Part shown: positions 36,351-37,385 of the stretch, piece by piece
Numbering within the stretch: the first letter of the stretch is position 1
How the letters are laid out: each line of letters opens with the position of its first letter
Assembly (NCBI RefSeq): GCF_045037415.1
Contig: NZ_CP173438.1
Reading direction: 5' to 3' (one strand)
Length of the DNA: 64,000 nt
Origin: Escherichia coli
GTDB lineage: Bacteria; Pseudomonadota; Gammaproteobacteria; Enterobacterales; Enterobacteriaceae
Program-made: the position numbers and the translations under genes
Notes under the pieces: model-generated
Told to the model about the DNA's origin: nothing
The model's input: only the letters and a program-made list of their open reading frames with translations
The model's database searches: none

Positions 36351-37385
36351 TTATGCCAGCCCACATTGTTGGCGGTACATTTCAGGGCTGACTGCACCCA
36401 GCGATAATTTTATACGCCGCTCGTTATACCATCTGATGTAAGCATCTACATGCTGCATGAGCTTTTCTGGCGTGATGCCCGACCATTTACGCCCATAATA
36501 CATTTCCGTTTTCAGTCTGCCGAAAAAACCTTCGCATGCGGCATTATCAGGTGAACATCCTTTACGGGACATTGAGCGAATAAGACCTGCTGCATTCACT
36601 CTTTCCAGCCAGCCTGGCCAGCGATAATGCCCACCTCTGTCACTGTGTATCACCGGTCGTTCGCCAGCATTTAACGTTTCGACAGCGCTATCCAGCATAG
36701 TGTTGACCAGCTCAGCATCGGGGCGTGTACTGAGAGACCAGCTAATAACTTTTCCATCGAAGCAGTCCACCACCGGTGACAGCCAGACTTTACCTGCAGG
36801 GAGTTGGAACTCCGTGATATCTGTCAGCCATTTCTGATTAGGTTGCTACGCCTTAAAATCTCTGGCGATAAGGTTATCCGGAGCCGGTCCGATTTCTCCG
36901 CAATATGAGCTGTAGCGACGACGACGGTTACGGCTGACGACAAGCTGTTCCTCCACCATAAGTCTGCGTACAACCTTTTCTGATAGCCGCCCCCCCTCAT
37001 GCCTGAGCATCGCATGCAGGCGACGATAGCCATAACACTGGTAATTACTGTTAAATATATCTGTCAGCATCGTACGTATCGTGGCGTATTTATCACCGGC
37101 TTTCAGTGCAGCCCGGTGATAAAAATAACTGCTACGGGTAAGGCCCAGAACATGAAGTAATTCTGTCAGGGGATATGTTTGCCTCAGGGCATCAGCGATC
37201 TTTGTTTTTTCTCTGTTGTTCAGGTGACTGATACTGATGCCCGGGTCTTTTTTTATGATTTCCTCCGCCTTTTTCAGAATATCCAGCTCCATCTGCCGGC
37301 GGCGTATTTCCTGATTCAGTCGGGCGACTTCCTCCCGCAACGCATCGCGTTCTGCCTCCAGGGAAGGTTCGTTATGTTTACGCAT
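36351..37385 (-). pseudogene. IS3-family orfB interrupted by an in-frame TAG
   Basis: ...RDFKA [TAG at 36846-36848] QPNQKWLTDITEFQLPAGKVWLSPVVDCFDGKVISW... in one frame. Confidence 0.75.

What the first reader, a model, noticed from the sequence alone, without database searches (positions are those of the whole stretch)
36351..37385. IS150-group transposase inactivated by a single in-frame amber codon
orfB reads through in one frame except for TAG at 36846-36848, which sits just before the conserved QPNQKWLTDITE motif. This is a point-mutational knockout, or possibly a site needing suppression, rather than decay by deletion.
Basis: seen in the sequence. Interest (0 to 1): 0.25.

Follow-up and report, generated by a model that had tools for sequence, protein, structure and literature searches.

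The report
Dead insertion sequence with two ambers
This is an ordinary, already-annotated dead copy of an IS3-family mobile element in an E. coli pathogenicity island; its transposase gene carries two premature amber stop codons, and the one flagged here is the later of the two.

Summary
The TAG at 36846-36848 (minus strand) is real. It replaces GAG (Glu346), the codon found in every other copy examined, and it lies 9 codons before the first catalytic Asp.

The ATG at 37385 is internal Met167 of a single 510-codon transposase frame (37883..36351). That frame holds a second in-frame amber at 37422-37424: TGG to TAG at Trp154, a residue invariant in 106/106 homologues.

Same-locus copies in strains VR50 and B20105 carry only W154*. 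So the flagged amber hit a gene that was already dead.

Both ambers are fixed in about 560-600 complete E. coli genomes, one chromosomal copy each. Sequencing error is therefore excluded, and nothing supports suppression. The sense alleles occur in multi-copy, plasmid-borne elements. NCBI's annotation pipeline (PGAP) already annotates the locus as "IS3 family transposase, internal stop".

Side observation: intact relatives encode the transposase as one ORF. They still conserve, in frame, a -1 frameshift cassette: A_AAA_AAA_G, a 6-nt spacer and a covarying stem. This cassette is the peak of synonymous-site constraint in the gene.

The parts
36319..37923 (-). Whole IS3-family insertion sequence, 1605 bp (ends +/-1 nt)
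   Evidence: Other E. coli copies match only between these ends. The terminal repeat core GGGGATGCGGACGATTTCC occurs at 36320-36338 (+) and 37905-37923 (-).
37899..37923 (-). Left inverted repeat (IRL), GGGGATGCGGACGATTTCCTGGACT
36319..36344 (-). Right inverted repeat (IRR). It carries a lineage-specific change, CCTGGACT to CCTAGACT.
   Evidence: The change is absent from the single-stop copies L052 and L053.
36351..37883 (-). Full transposase frame: 510 codons plus stop, one frame, now a pseudogene with two internal ambers
   Evidence: Translation. PGAP pseudogene EC958_RS28820 'internal stop'. NCBIfam NF033516 scores 414.7 bits against a cut-off of 160. Pfam finds HTH_28, HTH_Tnp_1, HTH_21 and rve.
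37422..37424 (-). Amber 1 (older): Trp154 TGG to TAG (+ strand C to T at 37423), inside the HTH_Tnp_1 motif ...VLYKW
   Evidence: TGG in 5/5 other copies. W in 106/106 homologues. It is the only internal stop in the VR50 and B20105 same-locus copies. The TAG allele occurs at 607 places in 605 genomes.
36846..36848 (-). Amber 2 (the flagged one, younger): Glu346 GAG to TAG (+ strand C to A at 36848)
   Evidence: GAG in 5/5 other copies. TAG at 559 places in 558 genomes, GAG at 722 places in 595 genomes. 118 records carry the GAG + lineage-SNP 62-mer; the two fetched (VR50, B20105) are same-locus copies with GAG at 346.
36810..36845 (-). QPNQKWLTDITE motif, start of the DDE catalytic core (D355 is taken to be the first catalytic Asp)
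   Evidence: P348, N349, K351, W352, L353, T354, D355, I356, T357 and E358 are invariant in 27 diverse homologues. The rve domain covers residues 346-442.
37248..37254 (-). In-frame slippery heptamer A_AAA_AAA (followed by G at 37247); codons Ile210-Lys211-Lys212
   Evidence: NNA-AAA-AAR-G in 8/8 divergent single-ORF relatives, despite GC of 0.43-0.63 and use of rare ATA/TTA/GTA codons.
37187..37242 (-). Predicted frameshift-stimulating stem (5' arm 37242-37233, 3' arm 37196-37187) enclosing a roughly 36-nt loop. The -1-frame stop TGA lies at 37194-37192 in the 3' arm.
   Evidence: RNAalifold gives 10 pairs, 4 with compensatory changes. 90% of cells are paired against 20-56% when slid, and 0/500 shuffles reach the covariation score. 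Window MFE is -19.9 kcal/mol, z = -3.57.
35808..36317 (+). L-lactate permease gene fragment abutting the IS right end. The other half of the gene is not on the far side of the IS.
   Evidence: PGAP annotation of EC958 mapped to window coordinates; ORF list.

Best explanation
The region is a fossil copy of a 1.6-kb IS3-family insertion sequence with an IS150-like catalytic domain. It lies in the sat-iha pathogenicity island of an ST131-type E. coli chromosome. In active relatives the transposase is one 510-codon ORF.

In this copy the ORF was first broken by TGG to TAG at the invariant Trp154 of the N-terminal DNA-binding domain. After that the gene was free to drift. A sub-lineage that includes ST131 and Nissle 1917 then acquired GAG to TAG at Glu346, just before the DDE core. 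That sub-lineage also acquired two synonymous changes and a change in the right inverted repeat.

The element no longer transposes. It is inherited vertically, or with the island, as a single chromosomal copy. The flagged amber is a secondary neutral nonsense mutation in an already dead gene. It is neither the primary knockout nor a recoding site.

Shown: both stops, their ancestral codons, their order and their population distribution. Inferred: loss of mobility and the neutrality of the second stop.
For: - Two in-frame TAGs lie in one 1533-nt frame.
- The ancestral codons TGG and GAG are present in 5/5 other E. coli copies. One of these (L004, WP_001470167.1) has an intact 510-aa ORF.
- W154 is invariant in 106/106 full-length homologues.
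- Same-locus copies in VR50 and B20105 have only W154*. 118 records match the GAG + lineage-SNP 62-mer exactly.
- The amber alleles occur at about one place per genome and almost only on chromosomes: 559 places in 558 genomes and 607 places in 605 genomes.
- The sense alleles reach 6 places per genome, and 43-46% of their places are on plasmids.
- ST131-type genomes hold a single copy.
- There is no target-site duplication, and the lactate permease fragment lies on one side only.
- Of 14 lineage-specific ORF changes, 9 are synonymous, 3 missense and 2 nonsense. The neutral expectation for nonsense is 3.7-4.7% per substitution. That gives P(>=2 nonsense in 14) of about 0.12, so two stops are unremarkable.
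- PGAP already flags the locus as a pseudogene with an internal stop.
Against: - Apart from the two stops and three missense changes the ORF is clean, with no indels. Both stops are amber, which a reader could take as hinting at suppression.
- Five places carrying the site-1 TAG 55-mer are on plasmids. I did not examine them, so limited movement, probably with flanking DNA, is not excluded.
- Immobility is inferred from distribution, not measured.
Confidence: 0.93

Rival explanations
1. The E346 amber is the single primary knockout of an otherwise intact orfB.
For: 36351-37385 has only one internal stop.
Against: The frame continues upstream through another TAG to the ATG at 37883. Intact relatives are single 510-aa ORFs in which M167 is internal. 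VR50 and B20105 carry W154* alone at the same locus, so W154* came first.
Confidence: 0.03
2. The ambers are read through, by a suppressor tRNA or programmed readthrough, so that a low level of full-length transposase is still made.
For: Both stops are UAG. There are no frameshifts or other stop types in the frame.
Against: - The stops are not conserved. All other copies and all 106 homologues have sense codons.
- Trp154 is invariant. From general knowledge, the classical E. coli amber suppressors insert Gln, Tyr, Ser, Leu or Lys, not Trp.
- Two readthrough events would be needed in series.
- There is no tRNA gene in the window.
- The amber copy is single and stationary, and its IRR has also mutated.
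- Given two nonsense mutations, both being TAG has a probability of roughly 0.1 by chance.
Confidence: 0.02
3. The TAG is a sequencing or assembly error.
For: None beyond its being a single-base difference from other copies.
Against: The exact 55-mer with TAG is present in 558 independently assembled complete genomes. The 1901-nt locus is 100% identical in dozens of ST131 assemblies.
Confidence: 0.005
4. The truncated N-terminal product (153 aa, HTH_28 plus part of HTH_Tnp_1) has been domesticated as a DNA-binding regulator, and this explains the retention of the locus.
For: An ORF of 153 aa with its original start remains. The locus persists in more than 600 genomes.
Against: The stop removes the invariant Trp and the rest of the second HTH and the leucine-zipper region. 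Persistence is explained by linkage to the sat-iha island. No test of selection was possible, because the first 153 codons carry only one synonymous lineage-specific change.
Confidence: 0.02

Closest known systems
PGAP pseudogene EC958_RS28820 ('IS3 family transposase; internal stop') in E. coli O25b:H4-ST131 EC958, NZ_HG941718.1 3316143-3317675
   Same: 100% identical DNA, with the same 1533-nt frame and the same flanks (sat, IS30, IS600 fragment, L-lactate permease fragment, iha).
   Different: None; it is the same locus. The annotation does not state that there are two stops, nor their order.
Intact E. coli copy WP_001470167.1 (plasmid of strain CB6886, locus L004)
   Same: Same IS: 34 differences in 1533 nt, the same inverted repeats and the same A7G run.
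   Different: It has an uninterrupted 510-aa ORF with TGG at codon 154 and GAG at codon 346. It is plasmid-borne, and its lineage is multi-copy.
ISKpn38 (the nearest relative that NCBI names after an ISfinder element)
   Same: Single-ORF 510-aa IS3-family transposase with the same domain order.
   Different: Only 61% amino-acid identity, so it is a different IS. The E. coli element has only the generic name 'IS3 family transposase' in the sources searched.
IS150 of E. coli K-12 (insJ/insK), type element of the IS150 group
   Same: The catalytic half is 42.7% identical over 281 aa (E = 7e-77). This is better than IS3 InsF (29.8%) or IS2 InsD (23.4%). It also has a long two-HTH N-terminal region, and an A-run slippery site followed by a stem.
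   Different: IS150 has two ORFs and needs a -1 frameshift on A_AAA_AAG to make the transposase. Here the run is A7G and the frames are fused. The N-terminal region is barely similar (24% over 86 aa, E = 0.04). The inverted repeats differ.
dnaX-type -1 frameshifting (shorter product), and IS1447 A-run slippage (PMC6211511)
   Same: For the side observation only: a slippery A-run inside a long ORF whose alternative frames end quickly would yield a truncated N-terminal protein. The IS1447 paper reports that seven A's suffice for transcriptional slippage, and that many non-Firmicutes relatives show 'no or -1 frameshifting'.
   Different: No expression data exist for this family. IS1447 needs +1 slippage to make its transposase; here the transposase is the unshifted product.

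Membership tests
IS3 family | Transposase with N-terminal HTH and C-terminal DDE (rve) domain that matches the family model | tested here: met
   NCBIfam NF033516 scores 414.7 bits (cut-off 160) over residues 121-504. Pfam finds rve, rve_2, HTH_Tnp_1, HTH_21 and HTH_28.
IS3 family | Terminal inverted repeats ending 5'-TG...CA-3' | tested here: inconclusive
   The inverted repeats of 25-26 nt are present. The right end is ...CATCCCCA. The base before GGGG at the left end is G here, T in 3 other copies, and G or A in 2.
IS3 family | 3-4 bp target-site duplication | tested here: not met
   In the window the left flank is ...CTCGTTG and the right flank ATTCAGG, with no direct repeat. Copies L003 (AAG) and L006 (TTA) may have 3-bp repeats, but these depend on a 1-nt shift in where the IS end is placed. 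The absence here therefore suggests rearrangement of this copy.
IS3 family | orfA and orfB in frames 0 and -1, fused by programmed -1 frameshifting | tested here: not met
   Intact relatives are single ORFs of about 510 aa: 106 of the 120 best hits. The A_AAA_AAA_G heptamer lies in frame. A6G two-ORF variants of this same IS occur at only 28 places.
IS150 group of the IS3 family | Catalytic (OrfB) region closest to IS150 among the group type elements | tested here: inconclusive
   42.7% identity to IS150 InsK, against 29.8% to IS3 InsF and 23.4% to IS2 InsD. References for the IS51 and IS407 groups were not available, and no ISfinder BLAST was possible.
Functional (mobile) insertion sequence | Uninterrupted transposase reading frame | tested here: not met
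   Stops at codons 154 and 346.
Functional (mobile) insertion sequence | Multiple copies or new sites with the same allele | tested here: not met
   The amber alleles sit at about one place per genome: 559 places in 558 genomes and 607 in 605.
Programmed stop-codon readthrough / suppression site | The stop codon is conserved at that position among homologues | tested here: not met
   Sense codons in 5/5 other E. coli copies and in 106/106 homologues. Called proteins cannot contain stops, but the DNA copies are unbiased in this respect.
Programmed stop-codon readthrough / suppression site | A cognate suppressor tRNA is present in the genome | not testable with these tools
   There are no tRNA genes in the 64-kb window. 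The rest of the genome was not available for a tRNA scan.

The most novel reading that the evidence does not exclude
This concerns the element's family, not the ambers. Active relatives encode the transposase as one ORF, yet keep an intact -1 frameshift cassette in frame under strong nucleotide-level selection. The cassette is A_AAA_AAA_G, a 6-nt spacer and a covarying 10-11 bp stem, with the -1 stop inside the 3' arm.

This would invert the classical IS3 logic. The transposase would be the default product. Frameshifting, or A7 transcriptional slippage, would make the truncated OrfA-like regulator, as in dnaX. I found no description of this arrangement in the papers I could search.
Probability: 0.3. 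Interest if true: 0.45.

Novelty: already known. Interest (0 to 1): 0.14.

Why it matters
The flagged feature matters little. It is one more decayed IS in a pathogenicity island, and public annotation already marks it as a pseudogene.

Three practical points follow:
- IS3-family 'orfB' calls made from the first ATG can hide an upstream lesion. This subgroup is single-ORF.
- The two ambers are ordered lineage markers of the sat-iha island: W154* alone in VR50-type strains, and W154* plus E346* in ST131 and Nissle-type strains.
- The intact family offers a natural test case for a frameshift cassette retained inside a fused transposase gene. If the cassette is functional, it would show an alternative way to set the transposase-to-regulator ratio.

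Tried and rejected
- Sequencing error was rejected: the allele is in 558 genomes.
- Amber suppression was rejected: the stops are not conserved, Trp154 is invariant, there is no tRNA in the window, and the copy is immobile.
- I asked whether two TAGs are statistically odd. Neutral expectation gives P of about 0.12 for >=2 nonsense changes in 14, and about 0.1 for both being TAG, so no claim is made.
- I looked for an ISfinder name. NCBI sources give only 'IS3 family transposase'; the nearest named relative is ISKpn38 at 61%. The papers that mention ISKpn38 in the search list (not read) appear from their titles to be resistance-plasmid surveys.
- I searched the literature for single-ORF IS3 members with an in-frame heptamer. 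Sharma et al. 2014 (PMC4066793) lists no such IS cluster. The IS1447 paper (PMC6211511) mentions relatives with 'no or -1 frameshifting' without detail. The ISPpy1 paper (PMID 23832000) and plasmid AM992204 were not held.
- Truncated copies start exactly at the T of the TAG (H76 and H77). In H76, the one fetched, this is an IS3-family element (PGAP: programmed frameshift, AL1L pseudoknot) abutting that base, which I take as coincidence.
- The PGAP 'programmed frameshift' label on copy L003 reflects a 1-nt deletion in the catalytic domain, not a recoding site.

Full report
**Observation.** The element lies on the minus strand. Translating 37385..36351 gives one frame with a single internal stop. 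That stop is TAG at 36848-36846, immediately followed by QPNQKWLTDITE.

The same frame continues upstream, however. Translating 38030..36351 shows a start at 37883 (MFTEEEKIRAIE...) and a further in-frame TAG at 37424-37422. The ATG at 37385 is therefore Met167 of a 510-codon frame that contains two ambers.

**Identity and context.** The 1.9-kb region is 100% identical to dozens of ST131-type E. coli chromosomes, including EC958 and JJ1886. In EC958, PGAP annotates exactly this 1533-nt frame as the pseudogene 'IS3 family transposase; internal stop'.

The pseudogene is surrounded by sat, IS30, an IS600 fragment, an L-lactate permease fragment, a further transposase fragment and iha. This is a mosaic pathogenicity island.

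The conceptual protein matches NCBIfam NF033516 (IS3 family) at 414.7 bits, against a cut-off of 160. Pfam finds HTH_28, HTH_Tnp_1, HTH_21 and rve domains.

Comparison with other copies delimits the IS to 36319-37923, which is 1605 bp, with 25-26-nt inverted repeats. There is no target duplication, and the permease fragment lies on one side only. This copy has therefore been rearranged since it inserted.

**Ancestral codons.** I aligned the window copy with five other E. coli copies of 95-98% identity. The window has TAG where all five have TGG (codon 154), and TAG where all five have GAG (codon 346).

One of those copies (L004, WP_001470167.1) has an uninterrupted 510-aa ORF with no frameshift. 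Among the 120 best database homologues, 106 are full-length single proteins of about 510 aa from Enterobacterales, Burkholderia, Cupriavidus, Pseudomonas and others.

Trp154 is invariant in all 106 of these. Position 346 is variable, with Ala most common and Glu in the closest relatives. Amber 2 lies 9 codons before the invariant D355 of the KWLTDITE motif, which begins the DDE core.

**Population distribution and order of events.** I used 55-nt megablast probes centred on each site, so that the 28-nt seed must include the allele. Counts are across 5426 complete genomes.

| Site | Allele | Places | Genomes | Location |
|---|---|---|---|---|
| Codon 346 | TAG | 559 | 558 | 558 chromosomal |
| Codon 346 | GAG | 722 | 595 | 330 on plasmids; up to 6 per genome |
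| Codon 154 | TAG | 607 | 605 | 602 chromosomal |
| Codon 154 | TGG | 622 | 481 | 266 on plasmids |

Sequencing error is excluded. The amber-bearing element also behaves as a fixed single-copy locus, whereas the sense alleles belong to a mobile lineage.

A probe combining GAG with a window-lineage SNP matched 118 records exactly. Two of these (VR50 and B20105) were fetched. Both hold the IS at the same locus next to the permease fragment, with W154* as the only internal stop.

Nissle 1917 carries both stops and differs from the window ORF by one base. The order is therefore W154* first. E346* came later, together with two synonymous changes and a change in the right inverted repeat.

**Is anything statistically odd?** There are 14 lineage-specific changes in the ORF: 9 synonymous, 3 missense and 2 nonsense. 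Random substitutions in the ancestral ORF give nonsense 3.7-4.7% of the time. Two or more nonsense changes in 14 then has a probability of about 0.12. Given two nonsense changes, both being TAG has a probability of about 0.1. I make no claim from this.

**Suppression.** Several lines of evidence argue against any reading in which the ambers are decoded:
- The stops are not conserved.
- Trp154 is invariant.
- Two readthrough events would be needed in series.
- The window has no tRNA gene.
- The copy shows no sign of mobility.

**Group assignment.** The catalytic half is 42.7% identical to IS150 InsK (E = 7e-77). The figures for IS3 InsF and IS2 InsD are 29.8% and 23.4%. The nearest relative that NCBI names is ISKpn38, at 61% identity.

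**Side finding: a frameshift cassette kept in frame.** In the window, codons 210-213 read ATA AAA AAA GAC (heptamer at 37254-37248). I compared eight divergent single-ORF relatives with GC content of 0.43-0.63.
- Codon 210 is always NNA (ATA, TTA or GTA; rare codons), although the amino acid varies.
- Lys211 is AAA in 8/8 and Lys212 is AAA in 7/8, with AAG in the eighth.
- The next codon always starts with G.
- At the seven other invariant Lys columns, AAA is used only 20 times in 56.

Six nucleotides downstream, a 10-11-bp stem forms between 37242-37233 and 37196-37187. It shows compensatory changes: for example, Ile/Val216 ATC/GTC covaries with the synonymous Asp231 codons GAT/GAC. In the alignment 90% of cells are paired, against 20-56% when the partner is slid. 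None of 500 shuffles reaches the observed covariation score. The window sequence itself folds this way, with MFE -19.9 kcal/mol and z = -3.57.

The cassette is the peak of synonymous-codon identity in the whole gene. It scores 0.87 for codons 210-218, against 0.41 overall.

The -1 frame ends 18 codons after the heptamer, at a TGA inside the 3' arm, in 7/8 relatives. The +1 frame ends after 8 codons, also in 7/8.

A relative with the classical two-ORF layout (L025) has A6G and the same stem. The single-ORF group is therefore a one-A fusion of a classical IS150-like cassette that has nevertheless kept the signal. A6G variants of this same E. coli IS exist at 28 places in 26 genomes.

The most likely reading is that -1 frameshifting yields a truncated OrfA-like protein while the unshifted product is the transposase. 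I prefer frameshifting over A7 transcriptional slippage because of the canonical spacer and stem. This is inference; there are no expression data.

The IS1447 study notes that seven A's suffice for slippage. It also notes that non-Firmicutes relatives often show 'no or -1 frameshifting' (PMC6211511). I could not access ISfinder or the ISPpy1-subgroup paper to see whether the arrangement is already described.

In the window copy the cassette is intact but irrelevant, because W154* lies upstream of it.

**Verdict.** The flagged amber is real but ordinary. It is the second nonsense mutation in an already-dead, already-annotated IS3-family pseudogene. The only feature of wider interest is the conserved in-frame frameshift cassette of the element's intact relatives.

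Noticed in passing
window 37187-37254 (minus strand); also L004, L013-L016, L019, L020, L023, L026, L028: A conserved in-frame -1 frameshift cassette (A_AAA_AAA_G, a 6-nt spacer and a covarying 10-11 bp stem, with the -1 stop in the 3' arm) sits inside single-ORF IS3-family transposases. It is the strongest synonymous-site constraint in the gene.
   Followed up: yes
E. coli genome collection, hits H256-H270: A6G (one A fewer) variants of this same IS occur at 28 places in 26 genomes, 27 of them on plasmids, and many come from one strain series. Each would restore a classical two-ORF, -1 frameshift layout. They could be real variants or homopolymer assembly errors.
   Followed up: partly
L003 (NZ_CP146679.1) and L002 (NZ_CP019456.1): PGAP labels these copies 'programmed frameshift'. 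Their frame breaks are 1-nt deletions elsewhere: GGT-GGC in the catalytic domain for L003 and ACGCA-ACTT for L002. Neither is at the A-run, so the label is probably an annotation artefact.
   Followed up: partly
flanks of L002, L003, L004, L006: Independent copies sit in closely related flanking sequence. CTTATATCA(C/T)TGGCGCT and GTCAAACATC(A/G)TGGCGTTGA occur on either side and in either orientation, possibly with 3-bp repeats (AAG, TTA) that depend on where the IS end is placed. This suggests a preferred, partly palindromic target, possibly the end of another mobile element.
   Followed up: no
window 30380-30398 (minus strand): There is a third, weaker match (3 mismatches) to the inverted-repeat core GGGGATGCGGACGATTTCC. 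It lies beside another IS3-family element annotated with a programmed frameshift just beyond iha. It is probably the inverted repeat of a related IS.
   Followed up: no
L054 (NZ_CP116191.1) 2495-2505; corresponds to window 36848: In strain DETEC-E1070 (H76; H77 has the same alignment start but was not fetched), another IS3-family element abuts this IS exactly at the T of the flagged TAG. PGAP marks that element with a programmed frameshift and an AL1L pseudoknot, and it ends ...GGGGCGGTTCA. Everything upstream back to IS30 is deleted. I judged this a coincidental breakpoint.
   Followed up: yes
(site-1 TAG probe): Five of the 607 places carrying the W154* 55-mer are on plasmids. I did not check whether these are island fragments moved to plasmids or independent events.
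   Followed up: no
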